Notes: a model not told the origin generated them from the letters alone. Positions 7,980-55,426 are shown, numbered from the stretch's first letter. The stretch is DNA of 64,000 nt from Spirochaetia bacterium (GCA_963666985.2 CAXXIA010000002.1:2592001-2656000), one strand, 5' to 3'. Numbers and translations are program-made.

Positions 7980-8012
7980 ACGGTTCTCCTCATTTTGGGG
8001 TGTGCTTCATAA

Positions 8013-8028
8013 AGCAAGGAGTGTGCCC
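8013..8028 (-). promoter_or_regulatory. Putative sigma54 (-24/-12) promoter
   Basis: Minus strand GGGCACACTCCTTGCT has exact GG-N10-GC spacing with GGCAC and TTGC, ~35 bp upstream of the ATG at 7979. Confidence 0.65.
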
Positions 8029-9730: not shown

Positions 9731-9766
9731 TTCTTCCTCCTCGAGTTCTTGAAAAAAAGCTCGCAT

Positions 9767-9789
9767 CTATGCAACAATTTGTTGCATAG
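9767..9789. promoter_or_regulatory. Perfect 11-1-11 palindrome, probable TetR operator
   Basis: CTATGCAACAA-T-TTGTTGCATAG between the divergent hydrolase and TetR genes. Confidence 0.7.
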
Positions 9790-9902
9790 TAAAGATGCAT
9801 GGAATCCGGAAATCTCTCAAGTTTTTCTCTGCGGCAGAAACGGAACAGTGTGTTGAGAAAACGACAAAAAACCTGCTTTATGCTGCAAAAGACGAAGTAA
9901 GC

Positions 9903-10511: not shown

Positions 10512-10615
10512 AAATGAGTCGCAATGAGTGCCGATTCGGCAAATCATTCGGCATCTGATGATGTACTTATCGGCGGCCGGGCGCGCGCTTGTTGAAGGAA
10601 GAGTCGGAACGGACG

Positions 10616-10653
10616 AAAAAAAGGGGCTGTCTCATAAGTTTTGAGACAGCCCC
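10616..10653 (-). terminator. Intrinsic terminator nearly identical to the IS1182 right-end hairpin
   Basis: Minus strand GGGGCTGTCTCAAAACTTATGAGACAGCCCC-T7, just downstream of the stop at 10662; matches 42183-42218. Confidence 0.85.
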
Positions 10654-10661
10654 GATCGGGA

Positions 10662-10946
10662 TCAGCCGGTGACGAAACAGCGGATTCCTTCGGTCGGAAA
10701 GCGCTCTTTTACTTCGGCGACGGCCGACTCCACGGCCGCCGCCAGATCATCATCCCCATAGATGATGAGAATGAAATTTTCTTCCGGCCAGATATGATCC
10801 CCCCTCTTGGGTTCCGTGTCTCCGCGTCCGTGAACGCTGGGGATTTTTGTATAGTGACTCGCCGCACCTCTGGATTGGAGAACATCCATAATATCCTGCT
10901 CCACCGAATGGTTGGCGATGATTTCAATGCGCTTCAGTCCTCTCAT
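10662..10946 (-). CDS. Small P-II-like transporter-associated protein (PG0541-type)
   Basis: KRIEIIANHSVE...VHGRG...GDHIWPEEN; ATGA overlap with the RND gene. Confidence 0.8.
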   Translation of the reverse strand: MRGLKRIEIIANHSVEQDIMDVLQSRGAASHYTKIPSVHGRGDTEPKRGDHIWPEENFILIIYGDDDLAAAVESAVAEVKERFPTEGIRCFVTG

Positions 10947-41740: not shown

Positions 41741-42189
41741 TATCGCTCGGCGATGAGTACCCTTCGAGTCCTTTGAACTTCCTGAAGCTAAAAAAGCCCC
41801 CCGATGGGGAGCTTTTTTAGTTCGCGTCCTGCAGGACTCTCCCTCCATTCGCCGCCGTCCTGGCGGCTTACTTCGGGCCGTCTCCGCCGGCTTCCGCACA
41901 CATCGTGTGTGCTCTTCGCTCCTATTGTCGCGCGCCGACTTCGCTTCGAGCCTGCAGGAACAATAAAACCGCCTTTATTGGTTCAGGCGGCCCTTCCTGC
42001 AATCATGGGGATTATTATCCGGTAAATATGAATCGCGTCCTGCAGGACTCGCCCTTCGGGCGTCGGCATCGTGCCTCCTTCCTCCGGGCCGCTGGTACCG
42101 TCTTCCAGCAACATCCTGTTGCCTCAACCTCGCTATCGCTCGGCGACGAGTACCCTTCGAGTCCTTTGAACTTCCTTAAACTAAAAAAG
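41741..42189 (-). repeat. tRNA-Arg-linked array of structured repeat units
   Basis: tRNA 3'-end copies TCGCGTCCTGCAGGACTC at 41822-41839 and 42033-42050 (original at 43921-43938); 56-bp block 41741-41796 vs 42134-42189 is 53/56 identical. Confidence 0.85.
41788..41820. terminator. Bidirectional terminator hairpin in the distal repeat unit
   Basis: CTAAAAAAGC-CCCCCGATGGGGA-GCTTTTTTAG. Confidence 0.75.
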
Positions 42190-43911
42190 GGGCTGTCTCA
42201 TTAGTTTGAGACAGCCCCTTTTAAAATTTGGTTGACCTCCGAAGACGGGAGGTTCCCTCCCATCCCCTTATCGTTTCTGTAGCTTCCTCATGTTATGAGC
42301 CATACTCAACAGTCCCCATTCAGTACTGACCATCTTCAATCCCCTGGTTCGGAATCTCCGAAATCCCATATTCGTCTTGATATCTCCGAATACAGATTCG
42401 ACTTCAATCGGCCTGAGAGAGCGCATTCTCAGTCCTTCCTCTGAAGTCAGCAACTTGCGCACTTCAGACTTATGCCGTTCCAGGTTTGGACGAACCGTCA
42501 GGATGCGCTCTTTGCCTCCGTATTTGCAGCACCGGATTCGGAGAGAACACCTTTGGCATCCAGGGCCTGTATACCTTTTTTCAGTGGTCGGAAATCCTGA
42601 ACCTGTTTTCGAGATTCTGGTCTCCTCGTGTTTGAATCGGCGACCCTTGGGGCACCGGTATGTATCATCAGAGGCACGATAGTCCCAGTTCTCTTTCATA
42701 TGAATCTGCTTCTTGAACTTCCGTTTCCGCTCCCTGTGGAAGTAGCTGAACTTGATGTACTTCTCGACACCATGATCCTCACACCACTGGTAGTTCTCTT
42801 CACTACCATATCCTGAATCAGCAATGATTCTTTTCGGATAGCGTTTCAGATTCTTTTTCAGTTTCTCCATATGTAGCGGCAATGTCAGGGAGTCACCGGG
42901 ACTCTGGTGGATGCTATATCCGAGGATGAACTGGTTCTCAGTACCCATTTGGATGTTGTACCCGGGCTTGAGCTGACCATTTTTCATATAGTCTTCTTTC
43001 ATCCGCATGAAAGTCGCATCATAGTCTGTTTTCGAGTAACTATTTCGGTCGCCGAGGATTCTCTTCTGCTGCTCATACTTTTTGGCACGAGGGAGATAGT
43101 CCTTGCTAGCGGTATTCAATCTCCGTTGAATCTCCTTCTTTTCTCGCTCCTCCCGATCCTTGCGCAGCTCTTCATTGAGCTTGGATACCGCATCTTCGAG
43201 AATCTCCGACATCGGCCTGCCTTGAGGATCCACATGGGGAAGGTCATGGTCGCCGTACTTCTCATCCTCTTCTTCATTGATGCGGTCGATGTATTCGAAA
43301 AGCTCATCCATATTGCCGGCCAGGCGCTTCTGGAACTTGTCTGTCGCCCGGCCCCATACCCATGTGTATTTGTTAGCTGCTGATTCGATTTTTGTGCCGT
43401 CGAGAAAGTAGTTCTCCATCTGGACATGTCCGCTCTCGATGAGGCTGTTGGCCATTGAGGCAAAGATTTTCTCGATGCTCTTCTTCAATGGACCGTTACG
43501 AAATCTGTTTATCGTGTGGAAATCAGGACGGTTATTACCACTGATCCACATGAAGCATATCTGCTCACGAAGAGCGTCTGCGATTTGACGACAGGAATAC
43601 AGCTGTTTCGAGTAGGCCAACACCAGAACCTTCAGCATCATCACCGGGTGGTAGCTGCTGGCACCGCCTCCCGGATAGGCGTTGAAGAGCTCACTGGTAT
43701 CCATCGTGTCGATGAAGTTGTTGATTGTGCGGGATATATGGTTTGCGGGAAGCAGTTCATCGAGACTTGGAGGCAGGAGCATCTGTTGGCTGATTTCGTA
43801 ATCTTTGAATGTAGCCTTCTTTTTAGTGTCCATGAAGAATTCTACCACCCTTGAATTCAGAAGGGAATTCTTCCAGACATGAAAAAGGGCCGCCTCTTAT
43901 GAGACAGCCCC
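42189..43911 (-). mobile_element. IS1182-family insertion sequence
   Basis: Terminal inverted repeats GGGGCTGTCTCAT (42189-42201) and ATGAGACAGCCCC (43899-43911) around a single transposase; exact ends uncertain by a few bases. Confidence 0.9.
42268..43833 (-). CDS. IS1182-family DDE transposase
   Basis: YHPVMMLKVLV, PDFHTINRFR, DGTKIESAANKY, SKTDYDATFMRMK, ADSGYGSEEN, VESVFGDIK. Confidence 0.95.
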   Translation of the reverse strand: MDTKKKATFKDYEISQQMLLPPSLDELLPANHISRTINNFIDTMDTSELFNAYPGGGASSYHPVMMLKVLVLAYSKQLYSCRQIADALREQICFMWISGNNRPDFHTINRFRNGPLKKSIEKIFASMANSLIESGHVQMENYFLDGTKIESAANKYTWVWGRATDKFQKRLAGNMDELFEYIDRINEEEDEKYGDHDLPHVDPQGRPMSEILEDAVSKLNEELRKDREEREKKEIQRRLNTASKDYLPRAKKYEQQKRILGDRNSYSKTDYDATFMRMKEDYMKNGQLKPGYNIQMGTENQFILGYSIHQSPGDSLTLPLHMEKLKKNLKRYPKRIIADSGYGSEENYQWCEDHGVEKYIKFSYFHRERKRKFKKQIHMKENWDYRASDDTYRCPKGRRFKHEETRISKTGSGFPTTEKRYTGPGCQRCSLRIRCCKYGGKERILTVRPNLERHKSEVRKLLTSEEGLRMRSLRPIEVESVFGDIKTNMGFRRFRTRGLKMVSTEWGLLSMAHNMRKLQKR

Positions 43912-43921
43912 TTTTTTAATT

Positions 43922-43995
43922 CGCGTCCTGCAGGACTCGAACCTGCGACCTACGGGTTCGAAGCCCGGTACTCTATCCATCTGAGCTAAGGACGC
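43922..43995 (-). tRNA. tRNA-Arg(TCG)
   Basis: GCGTCCT/AGGACGC acceptor, anticodon loop CT-TCG-AA, GGTTCGAGTCC. Confidence 0.95.
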
Positions 43996-44209: not shown

Positions 44210-44509
44210 ATGGAACTTACGAAGACACAGCGCCGATGGCTGGCATCAAAGGCGCAGAAGATCAAACCGACCGTGATGATAGGCAAAGAAGGGCTTTCGG
44301 AAGGCGTGACGAAGCAGACCGACGCGGAACTGGAGGCTCATGAGCTGATTAAGGTCCGCTTTGTCGGCCACAAGGAGTTTCTTGAGGAAATCGCGCCGAT
44401 GCTGGCTTCGAATACCGGTGCGGAGCTGGTTCGGACAATTGGTCATGTGGCTGTTCTCTATCGGCCTCGGGAAGAGGAAGAGAAACGGGAGATTATTCTT
44501 CCGTGCTAA
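44210..44509 (+). CDS. yhbY: YhbY/CRM-domain RNA-binding protein
   Basis: IGKEG, HELIKV and IGHVAVLYR motifs. Confidence 0.92.
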   Translation: MELTKTQRRWLASKAQKIKPTVMIGKEGLSEGVTKQTDAELEAHELIKVRFVGHKEFLEEIAPMLASNTGAELVRTIGHVAVLYRPREEEEKREIILPC

Positions 44510-44565: not shown

Positions 44566-45477
44566 TTAGGTGACGTTTTCCTTGTTTTTGTTAAAGGGAA
44601 AGCGTTCGTAGAAGAAATCCAGAAAAACCTTGAATGCCGGATTGGTATTATTCCGATTCCAGAAAAGAACTGTGAAAAACGTTGTGTCCAATCCTTCAAG
44701 ATCAAGCATGGCGCATCCTTGTATATTTTCCCGGGCAACAGGAGCGGGAATAATGGATCCTACCGTTCCCGATCGGACATTGAGAAGGATGGTATCAATT
44801 GAATCAGGAGACTGGATCTGACCGTCTTCAACCGCATCGGTGAGATCAAGACTTTCCCAGAGATGCCGAATAAAGGGAAACTGATTATACCCAAGGAAAA
44901 TGAATTTCTCATTTTGCAGCATGTCGATCGAAATCTTTTCAAATCGAGCCAGAGGGTGGGTATCCGATAAGATGACACAAAAGCGTTCTTTGAAAAGAGG
45001 AACAATCTCGAATGTCTCTTCATCTTCAATTTCAAAAGAAAAACAAATTCCGAAATCACCCCTGCCGATGGCGACCGAATCCCGGATTAAACCTGTTGGT
45101 CTGTTTTGTGCCGTAAAGCGAACATTGGGATAGGTTTTGCAAAAGTCACGGTAAAGCTGTATCAATTCGGGATAGTAGACCTGCAAACTTTCATAAACAA
45201 TTCTTCCGTATGTACCATTTGAAAACATGCGCATTCTTTCAAGAAGTTTTTCCCGCCTGAGGAGCAATTCATTACATTCCTCCAGAAATACGGCTCCGGC
45301 GGAAGAAAGGTGCATGGATTTATTATCTCGGATAAAGAGTTTGACTTGAAATTCATCTTCCAGTAATAAGATCTGACGGCTGAGAGTCGGCTGGCTGACA
45401 TGAATGATTTCTGATGTTTTTGTAAAATTTAAGTTTTTTGCCAGGGCGGAAAAGGATAGCAATTGTTCAAAGGTCAT
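44566..45477 (-). CDS. LysR-family regulator
   Basis: LNFTKTSEIIHVSQPTLSRQILLLE HTH plus substrate-binding domain. Confidence 0.95.
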   Translation of the reverse strand: MTFEQLLSFSALAKNLNFTKTSEIIHVSQPTLSRQILLLEDEFQVKLFIRDNKSMHLSSAGAVFLEECNELLLRREKLLERMRMFSNGTYGRIVYESLQVYYPELIQLYRDFCKTYPNVRFTAQNRPTGLIRDSVAIGRGDFGICFSFEIEDEETFEIVPLFKERFCVILSDTHPLARFEKISIDMLQNEKFIFLGYNQFPFIRHLWESLDLTDAVEDGQIQSPDSIDTILLNVRSGTVGSIIPAPVARENIQGCAMLDLEGLDTTFFTVLFWNRNNTNPAFKVFLDFFYERFPFNKNKENVT

Positions 45478-45675
45478 TTATATTTTCCTCCCCCTCCCTC
45501 TATGAGGCTATAAAATTACTCTATATATAGTGGGCTTTTACTGACTGATCTTACTATGACGGGGTGGACAGTTCAATATGAAATGTCCGCTCTGCCGGTT
45601 CTTGTATCATAACTCAGGAGATATCGATCAAGAAGGATTAGTTCTCTTTATAAACGATATCTTTGATGACTCCGT

Positions 45676-45741
45676 TATTCGAAATCCGAATACACTTAGT
45701 CGAAATTTCAATTTTACTCCTGAAAAAACCCTCCCTATAAT
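45676..45741 (+). promoter_or_regulatory. LysR box TATTCG-N5-CGAATA and promoter TTTACT-N17-TATAAT
   Basis: Palindrome 45676-45692 contains T-N11-A and is centred about -64 from the inferred start; -35 at 45713-45718, -10 at 45736-45741. Confidence 0.65.
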
Positions 45742-45805
45742 CGGGACTCGCGGATACGGATAAGTCTGTTCCATATCCGGATAAAACATGTAGGAGAAAT
45801 TCATC

Positions 45806-47758
45806 TTGAGTCAACAACAAAAAAAATACGCAAACCTTTTATCCCCGTTCAGAATTGGAAATATTGTTCTGAAAAACAGAATGATTTCATCTCCAAGTCG
45901 CCCGCATTTTGCACAAGGCGGAGAACCTTATCCTACGGATACATGGATTTCCCATTTTGAAAAGAAGGCAAGAAATGGTGCCGCCATTGTTACCTGCAGC
46001 GGTGCCGGAGGTGAGAATCTTGATCCGTCTCACGGATTATTATTCGATATTTTCCAAGGCCATAACCAGCATTATCTTTCTCAGTTGACGGAATCTTGTC
46101 ACTTTTATGGAACACGTGTTCATATGGCTCTTTATCCGATTCATGACAGGAAATGGGATGTCAGCAGTGATGTTCCTTCAATCTTTGTTATGGGTGACGG
46201 CAGTGAGATAACTTACGGCAAGGAAATCCCCGAAGAGGAAATCTTAAGAATTACCGAGCATATGGCCCATCAGGCTCTGGTACTGAAAAGAGACTGCGGT
46301 TTTGATGGTGTTTTTCTTCATATGTGCTATCGGGCAACCCTGCTGGCCAGAAGTCTATCTCCCTTGACGAATATCCGAACCGACAAGTACGGAGGCAGTC
46401 TTGAAAACCGCTGCCGCTGGCCTTTAATGGTCTGTAAAGCCATTAAGGAAAAATGCGGAAATGATTTTCTCATTGAGGCCTGTATTACCGGAGAGGATAT
46501 GGAAGAGGGCGGATGGACTCTCGAAGATTCAATAGAATTCGCCAAAATGGGCAAGGGCTATTTTGATATGCTTCAGCTCAGGAGCCCCGCTATTGATCCG
46601 AATCATCCCACCAGCTTCAACCCTAAAGCAACCCCCTGGCTCTATATGGCCGAAACGGTAAAAAAGGCCGGAGTGGATATGCCTATTGTCGCCATATCCG
46701 GATTCAGTCATCCGGATCTTGGGGAAGCCGCGCTTGCATCCGGGAAAGCCGATTTGGTATCCATGGCAAGAGCGTTTATCTCCAATCCGGAATGGGGAAA
46801 GCTTGTTGAAGAAGGCCGCGGAGAAGATATTGTTCCCTGCCTTCGATGCAATAAATGCCACAAGAGCAGCATGGCCGATCCTTGGGCCAGCGTTTGTTCG
46901 GTCAATCCGGTTTTCGGGCTGGAATACAAGATTGAACGGATGATTCCTCCGGAAGGTCCGTCCAAATCCGTCGCGGTTATCGGCGGCGGACCGGCGGGGA
47001 TGCAGGCGGCACTAAACGCGCTGGGCCGCGGACATAACGTAACCCTTTATGAAAAGAGTGACAAACTCGGCGGACTTTTAAAATGTGCCGATAAAGTGAA
47101 ATTTAAATGGACAATTCTGGCCTATAAGAATTTTCTGATCCGCCGGATAGAAAAATCAAAAGTCCGACTGTTTTTAAATACCGAGGCCACTCCTCAAATA
47201 ATCAATAACGAACATTACGATGTGGTGATTGCCGCGGTCGGTTCGGAGCCGCTTTTTCCGCCGATCCCCGGCATTGATCGGGAAAATGTTGTTTTCGCTG
47301 TTGATGTTTATGGAGGAGCGTATTCCGTTCCAACCGATACGGTCGTTGTAATCGGCGGAGGTGAGATAGGAGTTGAGACCGGAATGCTTCTGGCTCAGCA
47401 GGGCAAAAAGGTTACGCTCCTCGAAATGAGGGAGCGATTGGCTATGGATGCTACTCCTGTTCATTATTACAGCATGTTCATGGAAGCTTGGCAAAAAGAG
47501 TCAAATCTAACACCGATAGTTCGGGCAACGTGTACGGGCATCGGCAAGGATTGTGTAACGTACAGGGATGCTGACGGTGCGGAACGGACGGTGAAAGCCG
47601 GAACGGTCGTGATTGCCGCCGGAATGAAGCCGAAAACGGATGAAGCGCTGAAATTCGCCGCATCGGGAAGTCTTTTCAAGATGATAGGTGACTGTAATCA
47701 AGTTGGGAATGTTCAGAAATGCACTCGGAGTGCTTTTGGGATAGTGAGTTCTCTTTAA
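45806..47758 (+). CDS. NADH:flavin oxidoreductase (OYE barrel + 4Fe-4S + FAD/NAD domains; 2,4-dienoyl-CoA reductase/BaiCD-like)
   Basis: LKNR, RTDKYGGSLENR, CLRCNKC...C, GGGPAG, GGGEIG; TTG start downstream of AGGAG. Confidence 0.92.
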   Translation: MSQQQKKYANLLSPFRIGNIVLKNRMISSPSRPHFAQGGEPYPTDTWISHFEKKARNGAAIVTCSGAGGENLDPSHGLLFDIFQGHNQHYLSQLTESCHFYGTRVHMALYPIHDRKWDVSSDVPSIFVMGDGSEITYGKEIPEEEILRITEHMAHQALVLKRDCGFDGVFLHMCYRATLLARSLSPLTNIRTDKYGGSLENRCRWPLMVCKAIKEKCGNDFLIEACITGEDMEEGGWTLEDSIEFAKMGKGYFDMLQLRSPAIDPNHPTSFNPKATPWLYMAETVKKAGVDMPIVAISGFSHPDLGEAALASGKADLVSMARAFISNPEWGKLVEEGRGEDIVPCLRCNKCHKSSMADPWASVCSVNPVFGLEYKIERMIPPEGPSKSVAVIGGGPAGMQAALNALGRGHNVTLYEKSDKLGGLLKCADKVKFKWTILAYKNFLIRRIEKSKVRLFLNTEATPQIINNEHYDVVIAAVGSEPLFPPIPGIDRENVVFAVDVYGGAYSVPTDTVVVIGGGEIGVETGMLLAQQGKKVTLLEMRERLAMDATPVHYYSMFMEAWQKESNLTPIVRATCTGIGKDCVTYRDADGAERTVKAGTVVIAAGMKPKTDEALKFAASGSLFKMIGDCNQVGNVQKCTRSAFGIVSSL

Positions 47759-47775
47759 ATCGGTAAATGAACTGC

Positions 47776-47841
47776 AATTCGAAATGTGGATAGTGCAATA
47801 CGGAATTCCAATTGGGAAATGGGAAATTCCTGTGTTAAGGT
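47776..47841 (+). promoter_or_regulatory. Second putative LysR box with extended -10
   Basis: AATTCGAAATGTGGATA (13/17 to the first box) at the same distance from TGnTAAGGT (47833-47841). Confidence 0.4.
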
Positions 47842-47929
47842 CGAGATCCGGGGAATCGAAATGAAGGCAAAGTTTATCTTAACCAGATGTCCGATTAACC
47901 GGTGTTAATAATCAAATCGGGGAGAAGTT

Positions 47930-48967
47930 ATGAAAAAGAATTACACATGTACGGTTATCTTGGCTTTGATGATGATCCTATCATTGTTTTTTTCCTGTTC
48001 CAAAACGGAGCAAGCTTCTAAAACGGGAACGGCCGGTGAAGCGGGAGGCGAAGCGGGAGGCGAAGTCTCATCTTCGGTGGAAAAGATGAAGGCCGCCATA
48101 ATTGTCCCCATGCTGACGGTCGAAGCCCTTCAGGCAATTTGTGAATCCTTTGAAGCGAACTGTGCCAAGTATGGTATTGAAGCGGATTCGGCGTCGGCGG
48201 ATGTATCGATTCCCAGGTATATTGAGTTGATTCAAAATTACGTTGCGGATGAATACGATATTCTTGTTATCATTCCTTTGGATGCGACCGGTTTGGAAGA
48301 TGTTGTTGTTTCGGCTCGCAAAGCCGGTACGAAAATTGTGATGCTTTCAACATATCCCTCCTATGAAGTTGACGGAGGAATGATTTGTGATTATGAAACC
48401 ACCGGTTATGCCGTTGCCAAAATGGCCGTAGCCTGGTTGGATCAGGTTTATTCCGGTGCCGCGGCCGACAGTGTCGGATTCGGGGTGGTTGCATCGGAAA
48501 CGCCCGAAGAATATCTGCTCTGCAAGAAAGCCATGATCAGCACCATTAACGCAAGCAAAGCGGGCTATGTGGCTTACGTTAGCGGTGAAGAAGTCGGCGG
48601 CAGTGTTGACGCCGGATATAATTTTGCCCAGGAAGCGATGACGGCCGATCCGAACATCAGGATTTTCGTTTGTAACGAACCGGATTCCGCAAAGGGCGTG
48701 AATAACTATCTTATGTCCGTCGGAGATTTAAAGCGTAAGGACTACGCGATTTTCTCCATCAACACGGATGAAACGGCGATGAAGCTTGTTGCTCAGTCCT
48801 CGTCCGATGAGTCTTTATTGCGGGGACTCATTCCTTATGGGAATCCCGATGTCGGCGGGGTGGCCGCCGGTATTGTCAACAGTATCCTTGCGGGTGAAAA
48901 AACTCCTTACTGGGTTTATGACGAAATCTTTACCCATAATTCTTTCGGTTGGGAATACACGAAATAG
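47930..48967 (+). CDS. RbsB-like (CUT2) ABC solute-binding lipoprotein, divergent
   Basis: Lipobox FFSC; periplasmic binding protein type 1 pattern; adjacent to RbsA/RbsC homologs. Confidence 0.82.
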   Translation: MKKNYTCTVILALMMILSLFFSCSKTEQASKTGTAGEAGGEAGGEVSSSVEKMKAAIIVPMLTVEALQAICESFEANCAKYGIEADSASADVSIPRYIELIQNYVADEYDILVIIPLDATGLEDVVVSARKAGTKIVMLSTYPSYEVDGGMICDYETTGYAVAKMAVAWLDQVYSGAAADSVGFGVVASETPEEYLLCKKAMISTINASKAGYVAYVSGEEVGGSVDAGYNFAQEAMTADPNIRIFVCNEPDSAKGVNNYLMSVGDLKRKDYAIFSINTDETAMKLVAQSSSDESLLRGLIPYGNPDVGGVAAGIVNSILAGEKTPYWVYDEIFTHNSFGWEYTK

Positions 48968-49039
48968 CACAATCTTAAAAAGTAATATCCATTCATGAGG
49001 CGCTTTTGAAGCGCCTCTCTTCCGCAACGAGGAATTATT

Positions 49040-50539
49040 TTGAATACGACGAAAGAAGATGTTTTTCTTTCCTTAAGAAATATTACAAAAGTCTATCCCG
49101 GTGTTTTGGCTCTTAATGATGTTTCCGTAGATTTTCTTCAGGGTGAAGTTCATGCAATCGTCGGCGAGAACGGAGCCGGGAAATCCACGCTTATAAAAAC
49201 CATTACCGGAAGTGTTCAGCCCGAAAGGGGCTCAATCATTCTGAAGGGAAAGGAATATCAGGGTATACGGCCGAACGAGGCCAGAAATTTTGGAATTGAA
49301 GCCATCTATCAGGAATTGAATCTTATTGACTGTCTGACTGCCGCGGAGAATATCTGCCTTGGGCGAAAATACGGCCGGCTGATCAATCAAAAGGCTATGA
49401 ATCATACGGCTCAGGAGCTTTTTGACCGGTTTAAAATTGATATCAACCCCAAAACGCCCGTTCGTGAATTAAGCAATGCCAAACGGCAGATTGTTGAAAT
49501 TGCCAAAGCCGTATCAAAGGGTGCGCGGCTTCTGATTATGGATGAACCGACGGCTCCGCTGACAAATGCCGAGATATCCATTTTGATGGATATTATCCGT
49601 CAATTGAAAGCTGAAGGCGTTACCGTCATTTACATCTCTCACAGACTGGATGAGATTTTTCAGATTTCCGACAGAGTCAGTGTTTTCCGGGACGGGAAAT
49701 ACATCGTTACAAAGAAGACTGCCGATACCGATCGCGGTGAATTGATCAGTCTTATGGTGGGACGTGAATTGTCGGAAACCTATCCTGAAAGAAAAACCGA
49801 AGAGGGTGAGGAAGTTTTCAGGATTGAAAATCTTACCGGCAACGGCGTGAAAAACATTTCATTGAATCTGCATCGCGGGACAATTCTCGGATTAGCCGGA
49901 TTGGTTGGGAGCGGGCGCAGTGAAATTATGAAAGTTGTCTTCGGCCTGAAAAAAAAGCAATGGGGAAGAATCTTTATAAAAGGAACTGAAGTTGATATTA
50001 AAAATCCCCGGGAAGCAATTCGCTGCGGGCTCGGCATTGTACCGGAAGATAGGAAACGCGAAGGCTGTCTTATCATGTACAGTGTTGAACAAAATCTCGG
50101 CTTCAACTGTATTGAATCAATATCCAGAGGACCGGTATTCAGCCGATCGAAACTTCAGGAAATCGGAAACAAATTTATCAAGATTCTGAACATAAAAACT
50201 CCTTCCCCCGGACAGAAAGTTTTCACTTTGTCGGGAGGAAATCAGCAAAAAGTTGTTATCGGAAAAACCCTGGCCGCGGAAGCGGATATCATTATTTTCG
50301 ATGAACCGACCCGCGGTATCGACGTAGGCGCCAAGCATGAAATCTATACATTGATGAATCAGCTATGCGCCGACGGGAAGGCAATTATTATGATTACTTC
50401 CGACATGGAGGAACTGCTTGGAATGTCGGACCGAATCATCGTTTTTCATGAACAGGAAATGGCCGGGGAAGTACCTCCGGACAAATTCAATCAGGAATAT
50501 ATCCTTAATCTCGCTTCCGGCGGAAAAGAATCAGCATGA
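49040..50539 (+). CDS. Monosaccharide-type ABC ATPase (RbsA/MglA-like, two NBDs)
   Basis: GENGAGKST, DEPT, LSGGNQQK, DEPTRGIDVGAK. Confidence 0.96.
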   Translation: MNTTKEDVFLSLRNITKVYPGVLALNDVSVDFLQGEVHAIVGENGAGKSTLIKTITGSVQPERGSIILKGKEYQGIRPNEARNFGIEAIYQELNLIDCLTAAENICLGRKYGRLINQKAMNHTAQELFDRFKIDINPKTPVRELSNAKRQIVEIAKAVSKGARLLIMDEPTAPLTNAEISILMDIIRQLKAEGVTVIYISHRLDEIFQISDRVSVFRDGKYIVTKKTADTDRGELISLMVGRELSETYPERKTEEGEEVFRIENLTGNGVKNISLNLHRGTILGLAGLVGSGRSEIMKVVFGLKKKQWGRIFIKGTEVDIKNPREAIRCGLGIVPEDRKREGCLIMYSVEQNLGFNCIESISRGPVFSRSKLQEIGNKFIKILNIKTPSPGQKVFTLSGGNQQKVVIGKTLAAEADIIIFDEPTRGIDVGAKHEIYTLMNQLCADGKAIIMITSDMEELLGMSDRIIVFHEQEMAGEVPPDKFNQEYILNLASGGKESA

Positions 50540-51582
50540 ATAAACAAGGCGGATTAATTATGAATAGTGAAAGAGAGAATTTTATATCAGCCGTTCTTCT
50601 ATGGATGAAAACGCACATTATGTATCTGGTACTTATAATTCTTCTTGTTTTTTTTGCTACCCAGAAACCGAATTTTCTTTCCTGGAGAAATCTTCGGAAT
50701 ATCCTGGATCAGTCATCCTACATTATCGTTGTCGGCGTTGGCGTCGGATTGGTGATGCTTGCCGGCGGAATCGATCTTTCCGTGGGATTTCAGATGTCGC
50801 TGAACGGCGTTATTCTCGGACTGCTCCTAACCCGGACTCCCATTCCCTGGTATGTATCAATTGTTATTTGTCTGGTTTTGGGGTCGCTTTTGTCGCTGGT
50901 AAACGGGATTCTCTATGTGAAGATGAAGGTTTTTCCCTTCATCATCACCCTGGCCACCCAATACTGCTACCAGGGTCTTTCCTACATGATTTCAGGGTCT
51001 AAAACGATCGGAAGTCTTCCGGCCGCCTTCAAGGTTATCGGACAGAAATCTTTATGCGGTTTGCCGATTTCCATCATCATCATGATTGTTATTGTTTTAA
51101 TAGGTTCGTTTATTTTGAATCGAACCTATTTCGGGCATTTCTATATTTACGGTCTCGGCGGCAATCCCGAAGCCGTTGCCCTCTCCGGTGTGAACACGAA
51201 AAGAACCTATCTCCTTGTCTATGGTTTGGCCGGTCTGTTTATCGGACTGGGAACTGTGATGCTTGTTTCCAGAACCGGATCGGCCGCTTCCTCCATGGGA
51301 CCGGGAACGGAATTTACCATCATAGCCGGCGGCATGCTGGGCGGCATCAAGCTCGGCGGCGGGGGCGGAAAGATATCCAGTATTGTGATCGGAGTATTAA
51401 TTTTGAGTGTTTTATCCAACGGAATGCAGCTGATGCAGCTGGGAAATTATCCGCAGTACCTCGCCAAGGGATTGGTGCTGATCTCAGCCATCGGTTTCGA
51501 TGCTTATCAATCGAGTTCGGTTATCAGGAAGGCTGAGATCGTCTTCGGCAAAGAACCTCGAAAGGAGGAACATCATGTGTAA
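50536..51582 (+). CDS. RbsC-like ABC permease
   Basis: GGIDLSVG, PFIITLAT and GGNPEAVALSG motifs. Confidence 0.94.
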   Translation: MNKQGGLIMNSERENFISAVLLWMKTHIMYLVLIILLVFFATQKPNFLSWRNLRNILDQSSYIIVVGVGVGLVMLAGGIDLSVGFQMSLNGVILGLLLTRTPIPWYVSIVICLVLGSLLSLVNGILYVKMKVFPFIITLATQYCYQGLSYMISGSKTIGSLPAAFKVIGQKSLCGLPISIIIMIVIVLIGSFILNRTYFGHFYIYGLGGNPEAVALSGVNTKRTYLLVYGLAGLFIGLGTVMLVSRTGSAASSMGPGTEFTIIAGGMLGGIKLGGGGGKISSIVIGVLILSVLSNGMQLMQLGNYPQYLAKGLVLISAIGFDAYQSSSVIRKAEIVFGKEPRKEEHHV

Positions 51583-52021
51583 CGGCAGCAAAGAATCTTC
51601 GGGAGATTCGCAGCGGGAATACCGTTTGTTCGTACCGGGAATTGTTAAGAAAACCGAAGAGGGCGCGGTTCTGACCGGGAGTCTCTGCAGAATATGCGGC
51701 AAGAAAACTTTTCCTCCGACCGAGTTCTGCCCCAATTGTCTTTCCGAAGATCTGGAGGAATGGGAACTCTCGGGAACCGGAACGCTTTACACCTATACGA
51801 TTACCCGACTGGACGGGGAACATTTCCCCGCGCCGTATCCTCACGGCATTATCCGGATTCCGGAAGATGAAGTGTCTTTGGTGGCGCCCCTTATTGTCGA
51901 TGAAGGTTCGGAACCTCGAATCGGAGACACAATGGAACCTGTATTTGAACGACTCTGGACCGATGAGGATGGTACGGAGATTTACGGGTACAAATACAGA
52001 AAATGCGGAGATGCGACATGA
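51575..52021 (+). CDS. Zn-ribbon/OB-fold protein (DUF35, BbsA/ChsH2-like)
   Basis: CRICG...FPP...CPNC zinc ribbon and GTLYTYT OB fold; start downstream of AGGAGG. Confidence 0.9.
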   Translation: MCNGSKESSGDSQREYRLFVPGIVKKTEEGAVLTGSLCRICGKKTFPPTEFCPNCLSEDLEEWELSGTGTLYTYTITRLDGEHFPAPYPHGIIRIPEDEVSLVAPLIVDEGSEPRIGDTMEPVFERLWTDEDGTEIYGYKYRKCGDAT

Positions 52022-53169
52022 GGGAAGTTTTTGTTCTGGGAATAGGTCAAACGGTATTCGGGAAATTCCCTGAGAAATCGGCCATACAGCTGGGTGCACA
52101 AGCGGCAAGAGCCGCGGTACTCGATTCGGAAATCGATCCGCGGATTCTCCAGGTGGTTTACGGCGGCCGCTCTCTGGATGATACGCAAACGGCGGAAAAT
52201 ATTATGGGACGCCTGGGAGTTCACGGCATTCCCATGTTCAATACGGAGAACGCCTGCACAACAGGCGCGACGGCCGTGCATCAGCTTTATAAAGATATTG
52301 CCTACGGCGTTCATGACATCGGTATGGCCGTTACCTGTGAAGCCATGACGACCAGCAGCAAATCGGGCAAGAAAATGGTCGGCGCCGCCGAAGGGGATTT
52401 AAACGGTACTTTGGGAGTAACTATGCCTTCCCATTTCGCGATGATTGCCCAAAGGCTGATTCATGAAAGGGGCGCCACGCCGGAAGATATTGCTTACCCC
52501 TCCGTGAAAAATCATAAGAATGCCTGCATGAATCCCTATTCCATGTATAAGAAAGCGCTCACAACGGAAGAGATTTTGGCATCCCGGATGGTCAGTGATC
52601 CCCTGACGGTTCTCGAATGCTGCCCCATTACCGACGGCGGCGCGGCCGTTATTCTCTGTACGGAGAAGATGGCCCGGAAATATACAACCACGCTCATTAA
52701 AGTGGCGGCGTCCGTTATCCTGAGCGCTACCGAAGAGAAGTGGGACGACGACATCCTGTCGAATCCCTGCATCCGTGAAACGGCCCGCCTTGCTTATCAG
52801 GCCGCCGGAATCGGACCGGAAGATCTGGATTTGATTGAGCTTCACGACGCTTTTTCATCGGAGGAAATATACACGGCCACATGCCTGGGACTCTGCAAGC
52901 CGGGCGAGGAAGTGTCCATGATCCGTTCCGGAGCGTATGAAATCGATGGAAAATATCCGATTAATCCCAGCGGCGGTCTTTTATCGCTCGGGCATCCTCT
53001 TGGGGCATCCGGAGCACGGGTTGTTTGCGAGGTTGTTCAGCACCTAAGGGAGAGCGCGGGCGGACGGCAGGTTCAAGGGGCCAAAGTCGGCATGGCCGAA
53101 ATGCTCGGGGGGTATCTGACGAGGTTCGGTTCCCCGTCCGTTACGGGCATCAATATTCTAACCCGTTAA
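52018..53169 (+). CDS. Thiolase-family protein (SCP2/BbsB-like)
   Basis: ENACTTG, ELHDAF and NPSGGLLSLGHPLGASG motifs; ATGA overlap with the DUF35 gene. Confidence 0.92.
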   Translation: MREVFVLGIGQTVFGKFPEKSAIQLGAQAARAAVLDSEIDPRILQVVYGGRSLDDTQTAENIMGRLGVHGIPMFNTENACTTGATAVHQLYKDIAYGVHDIGMAVTCEAMTTSSKSGKKMVGAAEGDLNGTLGVTMPSHFAMIAQRLIHERGATPEDIAYPSVKNHKNACMNPYSMYKKALTTEEILASRMVSDPLTVLECCPITDGGAAVILCTEKMARKYTTTLIKVAASVILSATEEKWDDDILSNPCIRETARLAYQAAGIGPEDLDLIELHDAFSSEEIYTATCLGLCKPGEEVSMIRSGAYEIDGKYPINPSGGLLSLGHPLGASGARVVCEVVQHLRESAGGRQVQGAKVGMAEMLGGYLTRFGSPSVTGINILTR

Positions 53170-53186
53170 AAGTAGGATTGTTGTTC

Positions 53187-53591
53187 ATGATCGACGGAAT
53201 CAATCACATAGGCATCGTGACCGGAAATATTGAAGAGACTCTTACCAAGTGGAAAACCTATATGGAATTGGAGGTTGTCGGCTCGGCCAATTATCCGGAG
53301 AGGGGGCAGATGTCCACCATGGTGAAAATTGGAGAGAGCAGTTATATCGAGCTGATGCAGCCGTTGGGAGAAAGCGGAGTCATTGCGGATTTCCTCAAAA
53401 AACACGGCGAGGGCATTCATCATATTTCCCTCCACACGAACGGCCTTTCAGGCGACTGTAACCTTTTGGGAGAAAACGGAATCAAAGTGCTCGGCAATCC
53501 GGGAGATGCCGTCCGGTTTACTCATCCGAAGACGACGAACGGCGTGCTCTTTGAGGTTACCGAGAGTCGGAACGAAAAGGTGGAGTATTAG
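53187..53591 (+). CDS. VOC-family protein, methylmalonyl-CoA epimerase-like
   Basis: Metal ligands in INHIGI, IELMQP, GIHHISL and LFEV. Confidence 0.85.
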   Translation: MIDGINHIGIVTGNIEETLTKWKTYMELEVVGSANYPERGQMSTMVKIGESSYIELMQPLGESGVIADFLKKHGEGIHHISLHTNGLSGDCNLLGENGIKVLGNPGDAVRFTHPKTTNGVLFEVTESRNEKVEY

Positions 53592-53643
53592 GACCCATTC
53601 CGGAAACGACATCAGGAAATAATAATCTTTTGGAGGAATAGAC

Positions 53644-54651
53644 ATGAGTAAAGCATGGCAGGAATATCTGCCGGAGAACTTTAAAGAAACTTACGATTAC
53701 TCGAATCGCATGTGGAGAAGCGGTTTATACCAATTCCCGCCGCTTATCGTTACCTGCGCCATCACCGGCGGAAACGCCGGAAAAGAGATAAACCCGAATC
53801 TCCCCGAGTCCCTGGAAGAACAGGTGGAACAGACGAGTGCCGCCTACCAGGCCGGAGCCGGCATGGTTCACATCCATCGCCGGAAGCCGGATAACCCCTG
53901 CGCGGTCACCGAAGATCCGGAACTCTATCGGGAAGTGAATCGGGAAATTAGAAAACGGTGCCCCGATCTGATTATCAACAATACGGCCATCGGCGGACGC
54001 TTTAAGATTTCCGACACGGAACTTTCCGAGCAATGCTGGACTTCCATCTACGCGGAGCCCGAAATAGCCAGTCTGGACATCTCGAATTACTGTTCCTTGC
54101 TGACTCTGCCCAAACGTGAGCCGCCTCTGTTCGGCCGGGATGAACCGGTTACACGGGAATGGGGATACAGTATTACCCAAACCGAAGTGTTCCGGACTCT
54201 GGAACTTATGAAAAAACATAACGTGAAGCCCGAGTTCGAGTGCTTTCAGATGTCCGATATCATGTACACCAAAAAGGTTCTTGATGCCGGATATGAAGAT
54301 CAGCTTGGAGGCCCCCACCTGATCCAGTTTGTTTTTACGCCCGGCGGCAGCAATTGGCCGACCATGGATTTTTTTACCGCTATGAAAAATGCCGTGCCTC
54401 GAGGCTGTCATCTGGGTGTGATCGCCGCCGGCGCTCAGCAGTTTCCCCTGCTGGCCATGGCTATCTGCCAGGGACTCCATGTTCGGGTGGGCATGGAAGA
54501 CAACGTTTACCTGGAAAAAGGCAAACTGGCCGAAAGCAATGCCCAGCTGGTTGAGAAAATTGTTCAAATCGCCGGTTTACTCGGCAGGAAGGTTGCTACT
54601 CCATCGGAAGCTCGAATGATGCTCGGTTTGGGTGAACCGCGGAACTGGTAA
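53644..54651 (+). CDS. Beta-keto acid cleavage enzyme (BKACE/DUF849, Kce-like)
   Basis: IVTCAITG, AGAGMVHIH, KPEFECF and GLHVRVGMEDN motifs. Confidence 0.92.
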   Translation: MSKAWQEYLPENFKETYDYSNRMWRSGLYQFPPLIVTCAITGGNAGKEINPNLPESLEEQVEQTSAAYQAGAGMVHIHRRKPDNPCAVTEDPELYREVNREIRKRCPDLIINNTAIGGRFKISDTELSEQCWTSIYAEPEIASLDISNYCSLLTLPKREPPLFGRDEPVTREWGYSITQTEVFRTLELMKKHNVKPEFECFQMSDIMYTKKVLDAGYEDQLGGPHLIQFVFTPGGSNWPTMDFFTAMKNAVPRGCHLGVIAAGAQQFPLLAMAICQGLHVRVGMEDNVYLEKGKLAESNAQLVEKIVQIAGLLGRKVATPSEARMMLGLGEPRNW

Positions 54652-54721: not shown

Positions 54722-55426
54722 TTATTCGCATACCAGGTTCTCATCCCATTCGAAGATTCGCGCCGCTTCGATAAAGCGTGGATCGGGCGGGGCGGTTAGG
54801 GAGATTCTTTCACCGGTAACAGGATGCAGAAAGGAGAGCCGGTGGGCCCTGAGCATCAGGCCGTCCAGGCCGGTTTGTTCCCGCCAGATTCGGTTTCGGG
54901 GGTTATCGCCGTGGGGGATGTCGCCCAGGATGGGATGACTGACTCTGGAAAGGTGCCGCCTGATTTGATGATAGCGGCCGGTGATGAGATTGCATTCGAC
55001 AAGACTGTATCGGCTGGAAGGAAAATTACCGTCGGACCAGGGAGCTTCGGCCGCTGCCAGGCTCCGCCATTTCGTGGCCGCTTCCCGTTCGGGTTTCTCC
55101 GGGGCCTGCTTCATCGGCGAATCAATAACGCCCATGCCTTCCATCCGGCCTCTCACCACACACAGATATTTCTTCTCAATTCCATCACGGCCGCGAAGGG
55201 CCGTGCCGAGCGTTGAGGCGACTTCACTGCTTTTTGCGATGAGCAGGACGCCGCCCACGGGACGGTCGAGGCGGTGCGCCGGATAGAGGCGGTATCCGAG
55301 GCTTTCTTCCAGAAGTGACTGGACGCTCATCTCTCCTCGGGACATTTTCGTGGGGTGGACATGAATATCCCGAGGCTTGTCCACCGCCAGGATGTGTTCG
55401 TCTTCGTAAAGGATGGGGATGATCAT
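54722..55426 (-). CDS. RluA/TruC-family pseudouridine synthase
   Basis: VDKP, HRLDRPVGG, TGRYHQIRRH, HPILGD; start at 55426 (ATGA overlap with rarA). Confidence 0.93.
   Translation of the reverse strand: MIIPILYEDEHILAVDKPRDIHVHPTKMSRGEMSVQSLLEESLGYRLYPAHRLDRPVGGVLLIAKSSEVASTLGTALRGRDGIEKKYLCVVRGRMEGMGVIDSPMKQAPEKPEREAATKWRSLAAAEAPWSDGNFPSSRYSLVECNLITGRYHQIRRHLSRVSHPILGDIPHGDNPRNRIWREQTGLDGLMLRAHRLSFLHPVTGERISLTAPPDPRFIEAARIFEWDENLVCE

What the first reader, a model, noticed from the sequence alone, without database searches (positions are those of the whole stretch)
44566..54651. Catabolic cluster of unknown substrate: ene-reductase, sugar-type ABC importer, DUF35/thiolase, epimerase and BKACE
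Seen: a co-oriented, more AT-rich block under a divergent LysR, with no glycosidase, sugar kinase, CoA ligase or CoA transferase despite the RbsABC-like importer. Known: BKACEs convert a beta-keto acid plus acetyl-CoA into an acyl-CoA plus acetoacetate; DUF35-thiolase pairs (BbsAB, PhlBC, ChsH2-Ltp2) perform C-C cleavage or acyl transfer; MCE-like enzymes invert C2 of acyl-CoAs. Inference: an anaerobic route for a small non-sugar enone, diketone or keto acid, in which BKACE supplies the CoA ester. I do not recognise this gene combination as a described pathway.
Basis: partly seen in the sequence, partly recalled or inferred. Interest (0 to 1): 0.7.

Follow-up and report, generated by a model that had tools for sequence, protein, structure and literature searches.

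The report
Anaerobic polyphenol ring-opening gene module
These genes most likely import a plant polyphenol fragment and cut its ring apart without oxygen, using a ring-opening enzyme encoded elsewhere in the genome, and a related gene set in the gut bacterium Flavonifractor plautii is a testable candidate for the still unknown step that makes tea and cocoa flavanol metabolites.

Summary
The nine genes are real and intact. Only the LysR-OYE-ABC half is AT-rich (45.5% GC; 3' half 52.4%; genome 51%). The DUF35-thiolase-VOC-BKACE core recurs in Bacillota, usually beside a 6-oxocamphor-hydrolase (OCH)-type beta-diketone hydrolase. The host has no such gene here but three elsewhere. In a 401-genome Oscillospiraceae sample, 9 genomes carry this BKACE clade. 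All 9 have the matching hydrolase (0 of 151 others searched), 8 have the thiolase, and all 9 have phloretin-hydrolase-family genes (94 of 401 overall); the 9 include close kin. Best reading (about 0.5): a retro-Claisen cascade on a C-substituted phloroglucinol-type ring. Hydrolase gives a 3,5-dioxo acid; BKACE gives 3-oxoacyl-CoA plus acetoacetate; epimerase and BbsAB-like thiolase release the side chain as an acyl-CoA. It works like the PGR-DPGC-TfD-TAL phloroglucinol pathway but fails that membership, and those of bbsAB, lysine KCE and MCE. The substrate is not shown. F. plautii lacks this clade but carries a sister OCH/BKACE/thiolase set, a candidate for flavan-3-ol A-ring fission, which an April 2026 review calls unidentified. 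New variant; interest 0.62.

The parts
44566..45477 (-). LysR regulator, 303 aa, divergent; probable activator of the operon (inferred)
   Evidence: PF00126+PF03466; best hit among fetched loci is the LysR beside VOC-OCH-BKACE in L001, 44%
45713..45741 (+). sigma70-like promoter candidate (10 of 12) in the LysR-OYE spacer
   Evidence: the region as a whole has no more promoter-like sites than shuffles (8 vs 12.9), so weak
45806..47758 (+). Long OYE flavoenzyme (FMN barrel, 4Fe-4S, FAD/NAD domains), 650 aa, of a subfamily with H-x-x-Y-[RK] at the active-site strand; probable entry reductase (inferred)
   Evidence: CxxCxxC-x12-C at 345-364, motif and 41-51% orthologues; subfamily distribution
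47930..48967 (+). Substrate-binding lipoprotein, Peripla_BP_4 fold, of a non-sugar-looking subfamily expanded in carriers
   Evidence: PF13407 63.7 bits; no PDB match E<=0.001; 21 and 14 copies in G149 and G121
49040..50539 (+). RbsA-type two-domain ABC ATPase, 499 aa
   Evidence: 64-65% paralogues beside amidohydrolases and OYEs in the host
50536..51582 (+). RbsC-type permease
   Evidence: PF02653
51575..52021 (+). DUF35 Zn-ribbon/OB-fold partner of the thiolase, 148 aa, C-x2-C-x10-C-x2-C intact
   Evidence: PF12172+PF01796; BbsA model 58.7 bits vs cut-off 250; C4 pattern as given in PMC12329534
52018..53169 (+). SCP2/BbsB-like thiolase, 383 aa; C85, HDAF(281), GHP(331) invariant in 120 of 120 homologues; E366 where BbsB has its His (numbering from the 52003 ORF)
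   Evidence: AF2 model pLDDT 92.6; VIA Z 60.0, rmsd 1.5 over 380 residues to BbsB 7pyt
53187..53591 (+). VOC protein of the methylmalonyl-CoA-epimerase type, 134 aa; H7, E55, H79, E123 and the [HS]PK motif conserved; probable acyl-CoA C2 epimerase (inferred)
   Evidence: TIGR03081 84 bits vs cut-off 115
53644..54651 (+). BKACE, 335 aa, of an N-terminally extended clade; H76, H78, E199, R281, E285, D286 invariant; N44 at the specificity position
   Evidence: AF2 pLDDT 93.8; VIA Z 35.0 to 3e02/3lot; tree

Best explanation
The operon is the uptake/entry and lower half of an anaerobic C-C cleavage cascade for a C-substituted phloroglucinol-type (1,3,5-oxygenated) ring from a plant polyphenol. Step 1 (inferred): the ABC system imports the compound and the OYE reduces it, for example opening a flavonoid heterocycle or dearomatising. 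Step 2 (inferred; enzyme family and catalytic residues shown): an OCH-type hydrolase encoded elsewhere in the host (G000:C2 about 2261388-2262413 or 2285888-2286883) opens the ring 1,3-diketone by retro-Claisen hydrolysis to a substituted 3,5-dioxohexanoate. Step 3 (family chemistry; substrate inferred): BKACE plus acetyl-CoA gives acetoacetate and a substituted 3-oxoacyl-CoA, so no ligase is needed. Step 4 (inferred): the VOC protein sets the C2 stereocentre. Step 5 (inferred): the DUF35-thiolase, like BbsAB with a bulky 2-substituted 3-oxoacyl-CoA, releases acetyl-CoA and the side chain as X-CH2-CO-CoA. Butyrate-kinase-like enzymes or CoA transferases then free the acid, and acetoacetate is recycled. 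For a ring-opened flavan-3-ol the product would be 4-hydroxy-5-arylvaleryl-CoA. Shown: gene identities, intact active sites, co-inheritance. Not shown: any substrate or reaction. About 0.8 that it is a hydrolase-BKACE-epimerase-thiolase cascade; about 0.5 that the ring is a substituted phloroglucinol from a polyphenol.
For: Neighbourhood: of 19 other loci in the window's BKACE clade (20 rows, SH-aLRT 99, quick tree), 12 hold the VOC, 11 an OCH-type hydrolase and 8 the DUF35-thiolase (L024/L029 are duplicates, several are kin). The hydrolase's best solved match is 6-oxocamphor hydrolase (E 3.5e-31); the W40/H45/H122/H145/D154 equivalents are invariant in 17 of 17. Genome-level co-inheritance in 160 of 401 sampled genomes: strong OCH clade in 9 of 9 carriers and 0 of 151 others; thiolase clade in 8 of 9 (one broken) and 1 of 151; OYE subfamily in 10 of 12 carriers, 9 of 42 other PF18089-positive and 0 of 12 PF18089-negative genomes. 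Polyphenol link: PF18089 in 9 of 9 carriers vs 94 of 401; G149 also has an SDR-3HCDH-cyclase-BKACE cluster with the DPGC W20/Y22 and TAL Trp signatures of PMC10470551; the host has a pyrogallol-transhydroxylase homologue (E 1e-228) and a TAL-type BKACE (78% to G149's). Lactonase-family genes (PTE in L002, L005; SGL and MBL in L105), CoA transferases and butyrate-kinase-like genes recur nearby. A sister OCH/BKACE/thiolase set is in F. plautii, the only genus reported to do A-ring fission (PMC13674436).
Against: No substrate evidence of any kind. The window operon itself has no hydrolase; the host's three OCH-type genes are over 300 kb away and are not the subtype found beside the window's nearest BKACEs (35-36% to L001's); no convincing shared operator was found. 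The host lacks PF18089 and has only a 27% cyclase paralogue of the DPGC-type gene. No PGR- or TfD-like gene is a fixed member, so the ring would have to be hydrolysed unreduced or use enzymes in trans. The two halves differ in GC, and the OYE-ABC half adjoins the core nowhere else. The thiolase lacks both the BbsB His and the SCP2 HDCF Cys, so its second catalytic residue is unknown. The nine carriers include close kin (G079/G195/G267; G063/G169), and profile A3 was built partly from five of them, so the Fisher p-values overstate. The largest 90% clusters of the window's BKACE and thiolase clades have 28 and 90 members, against hundreds for F. plautii proteins, and F. plautii's sister BKACE is 28% identical: this is not the F. 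plautii set itself.
Confidence: 0.5

Rival explanations
1. Same cascade, non-aromatic precursor: a polyketide lactone (4-hydroxy-2-pyrone, styrylpyrone), an open-chain beta-diketone (curcuminoid, gingerdione), a hop-type triketone or a terpenoid enone. The OYE reduces an enone and a lactonase or OCH supplies the 3-oxo acid. Closest to the first reader's idea.
For: Lactonase-family genes beside the core in L002, L005 and L105; L105 has no OCH in its locus. OCH's known substrate is a non-aromatic terpenoid diketone (recalled). Long OYEs are commonly ene-reductases. No ring reductase/dehydrogenase pair is fixed in the module.
Against: PF18089 in 9 of 9 carriers vs 23% base rate. The OYE subfamily was absent from 12 of 12 PF18089-negative genomes tested. 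Sister OCH clusters carry SDR and 3-hydroxyacyl dehydrogenase genes, as the phloroglucinol pathway does.
Confidence: 0.2
2. Hydrolase-independent or mosaic: the host operon imports an already open-chain 3-oxo acid (cross-fed), or the AT-rich LysR-OYE-ABC half and the core are independent insertions serving different substrates.
For: GC 45.5% vs 52.4%. No hydrolase in the operon, with only 52 bp between VOC and BKACE. Six of 19 clade loci have a stand-alone BKACE. The wider 40-45% BKACE group sits with CoA transferases, SCFA transporters and dehydratases and has no strong OCH.
Against: The LysR's closest relative is the LysR beside the closest BKACE (L001: 44% and 83%), tying the halves. Permease and DUF35 overlap. 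The host does carry two strong-clade OCH genes. Stand-alone BKACE genomes still hold the other members elsewhere.
Confidence: 0.15
3. Substituted resorcinol route: the OYE is a resorcinol-type ring reductase giving a cyclohexane-1,3-dione, OCH gives a 5-oxo acid, and beta-oxidation in trans leads to the epimerase, thiolase and BKACE.
For: Reductive resorcinol ring opening is known (PMC10470551 discussion). Amidohydrolase-2 genes, which include resorcylate decarboxylases (recalled), flank this SBP subfamily. One host OCH lies beside an OYE, an SDR and a beta-oxidation-like cluster.
Against: A 5-oxo acid is not a BKACE substrate. No acyl-CoA dehydrogenase, hydratase or ligase travels with the module.
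Confidence: 0.1
4. An already described pathway: benzylsuccinate (bbs) beta-oxidation, lysine fermentation (KCE), canonical phloroglucinol degradation (TAL) or propionate metabolism (MCE).
For: Best solved matches are BbsB and BbsA-type; public sources auto-name homologues 'BbsB' and '3-keto-5-aminohexanoate cleavage'.
Against: All curated cut-offs missed (BbsB 291/750, BbsA 59/250, KCE 200/382, MCE 84/115). Asn replaces KCE Glu14 and TAL Trp16. No bss, bbsCDEFGH, kam/kdd/kal or mutase genes in any clade locus.
Confidence: 0.05

Closest known systems
Anaerobic phloroglucinol pathway PGR-DPGC-TfD-TAL of Clostridium scatologenes (PMC10470551; parts 1-2 of 7 and passages read)
   Same: Retro-Claisen ring hydrolysis followed by a BKACE that turns a 3,5-dioxo acid plus acetyl-CoA into 3-oxoacyl-CoA and acetoacetate; occurs in the same kind of genomes (G149 has both).
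   Different: Ring hydrolase is crotonase/OCH-fold, not cyclase-family; BKACE has Asn, not Trp16; no fixed PGR or TfD; adds VOC epimerase, DUF35-thiolase, long OYE and ABC importer, which fit a ring carrying a substituent.
BbsAB benzoylsuccinyl-CoA thiolase (PDB 7pxp, 7pyt)
   Same: DUF35 plus SCP2-type thiolase, nucleophilic Cys, HDAF and GHP motifs; 38% identity, Z 60.
   Different: BbsB's His near the C-terminus (called acid/base His369 from recall) is Gln/Glu in 112 of 120 clade members; no bss/bbs context.
6-oxocamphor hydrolase and Anabaena beta-diketone hydrolase (PDB 1o8u, 2j5g)
   Same: Fold and catalytic His/Asp set in the trans-encoded partner.
   Different: Longer (325-385 aa), in strict anaerobes, coupled to BKACE; no such coupling was found in print (two papers mention the enzyme).
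Methylmalonyl-CoA epimerase (PDB 6wf6, 3rmu)
   Same: VOC fold, H/E/H/E site of the human/Bacillus type, HPK motif.
   Different: Below the TIGR03081 cut-off; no mutase nearby; conserved GQxS in place of the actinobacterial Glu43 segment.
Flavan-3-ol A-ring fission to phenyl-gamma-valerolactones by Flavonifractor plautii (PMC13674436; passages read)
   Same: The product expected from this cascade on a ring-opened flavan-3-ol is 4-hydroxy-5-arylvaleryl-CoA (my inference); F. plautii has an OCH-like/BKACE/thiolase set.
   Different: F. plautii's set is a sister system (hydrolase 30-34% and BKACE 28% to this clade; canonical thiolase; no VOC in L156); several carriers have both systems, so substrates probably differ.

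Membership tests
BKACE (PF05853) | Profile score over cut-off and TIM-barrel fold | tested here: met
   243 vs 24.8 bits; VIA Z 35.0, rmsd 2.5-2.6 over about 294 residues
BKACE (PF05853) | Zn ligands (His, His, Glu) and catalytic Glu/Arg/Asp | tested here: met
   H76, H78, E285, E199, R281, D286 in 44 of 44, aligned to KCE 2y7d; roles of Glu and Arg from PMC11961710; KCE numbering recalled
Lysine-fermentation KCE | Glu14 binding the 5-amino group; NF052387 cut-off | tested here: not met
   N44 in 44 of 44; 200 vs 382 bits; Glu14 role from PMC10470551
Triacetate acetoacetate-lyase / canonical phloroglucinol pathway | Trp16 in BKACE; PGR, cyclase-family DPGC and TfD in the cluster | tested here: not met
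   N44; none of the three in the operon; the host's Trp-type BKACE is another gene (C1:735049-735888)
3-oxoadipate or 3,5-dioxohexanoate:acetyl-CoA transferase equivalogs | NF053568 and NF053538 cut-offs | tested here: not met
   169 vs 350 and 163.5 vs 430 bits
BbsAB | NF053628/NF053627 cut-offs, C-terminal catalytic His, bss/bbs neighbours | tested here: not met
   291/750 and 59/250; E366, Q80/E32/H5 of 120; role of the His recalled
DUF35-associated thiolase fold (broad) | Nucleophilic Cys, HDxF, GHP, adjacent C4 DUF35 | tested here: met
SCP2-thiolase sensu stricto | HDCF motif | tested here: not met
   HDAF, A283 in 120 of 120; motif from PMC12329534
Ltp2/Sal aldolases | YDHF or YDCY motif with catalytic Tyr; DUF35 fused to a hydratase | tested here: not met
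   HDAF; free-standing DUF35
PhlABC acyltransferase | Third subunit PhlA beside PhlB/PhlC | tested here: not met
   no such gene in the operon or clade loci; 22-23% identity to PhlC
Methylmalonyl-CoA epimerase | Metal site H/E(Q)/H/E and HPK motif | tested here: met
Methylmalonyl-CoA epimerase | TIGR03081 equivalog cut-off and mutase context | tested here: not met
   84 vs 115 bits; no mutase in clade loci
Long (FadH/BaiCD-type) OYE | FMN barrel, CxxCxxC-x11/12-C cluster motif, FAD/NAD domains | tested here: met
BilR, BaiCD, mycofactocin OYE | NCBIfam cut-offs | tested here: not met
   299/750, 295/825, 292/793 bits
Flavonoid C-ring or benzyl-ether reductases (Fcr, Cber, Ber, daidzein reductase) | Orthology to the characterised enzymes | not testable with these tools
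Sugar (CUT2) ABC importers | Architecture: Peripla_BP_4, two-domain ATPase, BPD_transp_2 | tested here: met
Sugar (CUT2) ABC importers | Assignment to a known sugar specificity | tested here: not met
   SBP 20-22 bits vs cut-offs 390-504; ATPase and permease below all sugar equivalogs; no PDB match
OCH-type beta-diketone hydrolase (partner in trans) | Trp40, His45, His122, His145, Asp154 (and Glu244) | tested here: met
   mapped, invariant in 17 of 17 including three host genes; Glu244 number recalled; sister subfamily keeps all but Trp40
Any of the above | Enzyme activity on the family's substrate | not testable with these tools
   needs assays

The most novel reading that the evidence does not exclude
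OCH-type hydrolase plus BKACE systems are the missing machinery for anaerobic A-ring fission of C-substituted phloroglucinols. The sister set in F. plautii (SDR/3HCDH, OCH, BKACE, thiolase, CoA transferase, PTE lactonase in L156-type loci) makes phenyl-gamma-valerolactones from ring-opened flavan-3-ols (about 0.4 on its own). The window's version, with an added epimerase and a BbsAB-like thiolase, handles rings with a branch or two substituents, such as proanthocyanidin-linked or C-alkyl/prenyl A rings. Small-genome gut specialists have multiplied it (G149, 1.8 Mb: 9 hydrolases, 5 thiolases, 21 SBPs, 14 long OYEs) to live on tannin fragments.
Probability: 0.3. Interest if true: 0.85.

Novelty: new variant of a known kind. 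Interest (0 to 1): 0.62.

Why it matters
How anaerobes break the substituted A ring of flavan-3-ols and condensed tannins is open: an April 2026 review says the A-ring fission enzymes 'remain completely unidentified' (PMC13674436). Their products, phenyl-valerolactones, are the main circulating metabolites of tea and cocoa flavanols and differ between people. This finding defines a co-inherited five-family module with a coherent chemistry, adds the member the window lacks, and names concrete candidate genes in a culturable organism. It also offers a BKACE clade, a thiolase with an unexplained second catalytic residue, and a 'sugar-type' SBP family that probably binds phenolics. If the substrate proves to be something else, it is still an undescribed C-C cleavage cascade.

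Tried and rejected
Relatives of the host: the BKACE clade was not found in 60 of 60 searched at E<=1e-70; donor and direction of transfer were not tested (the tree is the quick one, no test_one_clade). Thiolase clade: 0 of 400 in a class-wide sample (one genome not scored; no positive control in that call); none on plasmids. Genus search of G061 returned only itself. More distant SCP2 thiolases in G150, G158 and G307 lie in unrelated Mo-hydroxylase-like clusters: rejected as orthologues. Glycyl-radical genes near three clade loci are not orthologous to each other in full (31-43%), and none passes a named family cut-off: no fumarate-addition route. First idea that this clade is the F. plautii step: rejected. 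First labelling of host locus L020 as the canonical phloroglucinol cluster: withdrawn; its BKACE lacks the Trp and its cyclase is 27% to the DPGC-type gene, and its SDR had no phloroglucinol-reductase match listed at E<=1e-45. Shared-operator search: one 10-mer shared with the region upstream of one host OCH, not convincing. Promoter and terminator scans at chance level. Thiolase-VOC complex prediction: no verdict. Atlas search on BKACE gave only BKACE clusters; the SBP was not searched there. Earlier findings of this scan: none. Literature, 10 searches: no listed paper describes this gene set; valerolactone+Flavonifractor+thiolase gave 0 papers. The library lacks most subscription journals, PMC3149333 was not held, and no supplements were read; CAMPER's closed supplements could list some of these genes.
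Full report
Observation. The window is G000:C2:2592001-2656000. Between yhbY (44210-44509) and a convergent pseudouridine synthase (54722-55522) lie a LysR gene on the minus strand and eight intact plus-strand ORFs. Pfam and NCBIfam identify a long OYE, a Peripla_BP_4 lipoprotein, a two-domain ABC ATPase, a permease, DUF35, an SCP2-type thiolase, an MCE-like VOC protein and a BKACE; none reaches a specific curated cut-off. There is no glycosidase, kinase, ligase or CoA transferase in the block. The block is 47.6% GC, the 12th percentile of 10-kb windows; the bias lies in the first five genes (45.5%), while DUF35 to BKACE is 52.4%, like the genome. DUF35, thiolase and VOC are single-copy in the host; the OYE has about ten paralogues and the BKACE six distant ones.

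Active sites. BKACE keeps the metal and catalytic residues in 44 of 44 aligned homologues and has Asn44 where KCE has Glu14 and TAL has Trp16 (roles from PMC10470551). Its model (pLDDT 93.8) matches solved BKACEs at Z 35. The thiolase keeps Cys85, HDAF and GHP in 120 of 120 homologues, and its model is closest to BbsB (Z 60.0, rmsd 1.5). It has Gln or Glu (112 of 120) where BbsB has its C-terminal His, and no HDCF Cys, so its acid/base residue is unexplained. The VOC protein has a full H/E/H/E site and the HPK motif of MCEs. The OYE belongs to a subfamily with H-x-x-Y-[RK] at the active-site strand. The SBP has no solved relative at E<=0.001.

The conserved module and its missing member. A genome scan with the BKACE gave five Bacillota loci at 53-83% identity; all five carry the VOC and a crotonase-fold protein whose best solved match is 6-oxocamphor hydrolase. 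Metagenome and genome searches extended this. In a quick tree of 111 BKACEs the window's protein groups with L001 and L002 (100) inside a 20-row clade (99). Of the 19 other loci of that clade, 12 hold the VOC, 11 the hydrolase, 8 the DUF35-thiolase pair and 6 none of them; L024/L029 are duplicates and several are kin. The order DUF35-thiolase-VOC-(hydrolase)-BKACE is kept in L003, L004, L106, L112, L026 and L105. Independently, 21 contig lengths are shared between the top BKACE and thiolase homologue lists (shift control 0.45). The window's operon has no hydrolase, but the host encodes three, two of them in the strong clade, with the OCH catalytic set invariant.

Genome-level test. In 401 genomes of the family of G063, 15 match the BKACE profile at E<=1e-90 and 9 belong to the tight clade. 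I searched 160 of the 401 (all 94 PF18089-positive, 66 negative). The strong hydrolase clade (E<1e-100) is in those 9 and in 0 of 151 others; 29 of the 151 have only a weaker sister type. The thiolase clade is in 8 of 9 (one broken; not found in the G061 assembly) and 1 of 151. Phloretin-hydrolase-family genes are in 9 of 9 against 94 of 401, and in 2 of the 6 genomes with only the looser BKACE. The OYE subfamily is in 10 of 12 carriers, 9 of 42 other PF18089-positive and 0 of 12 negative genomes, often beside an SBP of the window's type. Kinship and the use of five carriers in the hydrolase profile inflate these contrasts. Some carriers have multiplied the module: G149 (1.8 Mb) has 9 hydrolases, 5 thiolases, 21 SBPs, 14 long OYEs and several butyrate-kinase-like genes. 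The BKACE clade was not found in 60 relatives of the host, nor the thiolase clade in 400 class-wide genomes: the module is rare and patchy, and probably acquired by the host (inference).

Mechanism. A BKACE needs a 3-oxo acid. A beta-diketone hydrolase yields one only from a 1,3,5-tricarbonyl, that is a phloroglucinol-type ring or an equivalent polyketide. An MCE-type epimerase and a BbsB-type thiolase both point to a 2-substituted 3-oxoacyl-CoA. Together this gives: import and reduction; ring hydrolysis in trans to a substituted 3,5-dioxohexanoate; BKACE to 3-oxoacyl-CoA and acetoacetate; epimerisation; thiolysis to acetyl-CoA and X-CH2-CO-CoA. All steps are inferred from family chemistry. 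The known phloroglucinol pathway has the same logic with other parts (PMC10470551). Context fits polyphenols: G149 has a cluster with the DPGC and TAL signatures, and the host has a pyrogallol-transhydroxylase homologue and a TAL-type BKACE. Against: the host lacks PF18089 and a close DPGC; no ring reductase/dehydrogenase pair is fixed in the module; the hydrolases are distant and of another subtype than those beside the nearest BKACEs; and the GC split allows a mosaic, although the LysR's nearest relative lies beside the nearest BKACE. I put 0.5 on a substituted phloroglucinol-type ring, 0.2 on a non-aromatic diketone or lactone, 0.15 on a hydrolase-independent or mosaic operon, 0.1 on a resorcinol route and 0.05 on a described pathway.

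Sister system. The weaker hydrolase type lies in clusters with an SDR and/or 3-hydroxyacyl dehydrogenase, another BKACE, a canonical thiolase, CoA transferase and, in L156, a PTE-family lactonase. Its 90% clusters contain proteins named Flavonifractor plautii (93-95% to the L156 hydrolase), as do the clusters of the L156 BKACE and thiolase; synteny in F. plautii itself was not seen, and the thiolase cluster is a mixed one. [quoted passage not shown] The cascade above, run on that substrate, gives 4-hydroxy-5-arylvaleryl-CoA, the precursor of the valerolactone (my inference). The window's module is not that set: its BKACE is 28% identical to F. plautii's, its clusters are small, and several carriers hold both systems.

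What is known. Ten searches found no paper on this gene set; coverage of subscription journals is poor and no supplements were read. Seen: PMC10470551 parts 1-2 of 7 plus passages; passages of PMC11780191, PMC13674436, PMC12329534, PMC11961710, PMC8398226 and bioRxiv 10.1101/2023.09.24.559193; other papers as listings only. The role of BbsB His369, OCH Glu244 and KCE numbering, and OCH's natural substrate are recalled.

Verdict. A real, rare, co-inherited catabolic module. It works like the phloroglucinol pathway extended by BbsAB-like thiolysis, but is a member of neither. New variant of a known kind; substrate unproven; interest 0.62, mainly because it makes the A-ring fission question directly testable.

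Noticed in passing
L156 (G450:C1:65000-84999) 174-13141; also L149, L155, L157: Sister cluster LysR, MFS, DUF362, 3-hydroxyacyl dehydrogenase, MFS, CoA transferase A/B, thiolase, two OCH-like hydrolases, BKACE, PTE lactonase; hydrolase, BKACE and thiolase have 90% cluster members named F. plautii. Candidate for phenyl-valerolactone formation.
   Followed up: partly
G149, G121, G063, G061 whole genomes (L127-L146, L158-L166): Small genomes (1.8-2.2 Mb) with 14-32 long OYEs; G149 has four tandem OCH-type genes, three tandem DUF35-thiolase pairs and 21 stand-alone SBPs of one subfamily, many beside LysR and OYE genes.
   Followed up: partly
L105 (G063:C82) 135-7499: DUF35-thiolase-VOC-BKACE followed by a glycyl-radical enzyme whose best solved match is a hydroxyphenylacetate decarboxylase (7e7l, E 4e-176), and preceded by SGL-lactonase and MBL genes; may make and decarboxylate an arylacetate.
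   Followed up: partly
L011 (G000:C2:520000-539999) 2325-10532: Host cluster: HpaB/4-hydroxybutyryl-CoA-dehydratase-fold gene, pyridoxamine-pyruvate-aminotransferase-like gene (433 bits vs 600), ECF transporter, MIF-family tautomerase, convergent with an OCH-type hydrolase and LysR; possibly anaerobic vitamin B6 handling.
   Followed up: no
L020 (G000:C2:2690000-2709999): Two pyrogallol-transhydroxylase-like Mo enzymes with SDR, BKACE, thiolase, cyclase-family protein, 3-hydroxyacyl dehydrogenase and CoA transferase; the cyclase is 78-89% identical to genes in G079, G121 and G061 but 27% to the DPGC type: a second hydroxybenzene pathway.
   Followed up: partly
many genomes (e.g. G281:C26, G235:C8, G146:C24, G301:C1): PF18089 phloretin/DAPG-hydrolase domains lie inside open frames of about 816-928 aa, often as tandem pairs, suggesting a fusion protein family.
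   Followed up: no
window 42179-43921: IS1182-family element with terminal inverted repeats, 14 near-identical copies in the host genome; it sits between short repeated elements at 41741-42229 and 43896-43942 and is not part of the cluster.
   Followed up: partly
L152 (G101:C19) 7731-12546: CoA-transferase III, DUF35, thiolase of this clade (49%), a different VOC (26%) and an SCFA transporter, in a genome without the strong OCH clade: the thiolase pair can serve another route.
   Followed up: no
L114-L125: The wider 40-45% BKACE group lies with CoA transferases, SCFA or GPH transporters and 2-hydroxyacyl-CoA-dehydratase-like operons; a separate set of unassigned catabolic clusters.
   Followed up: no
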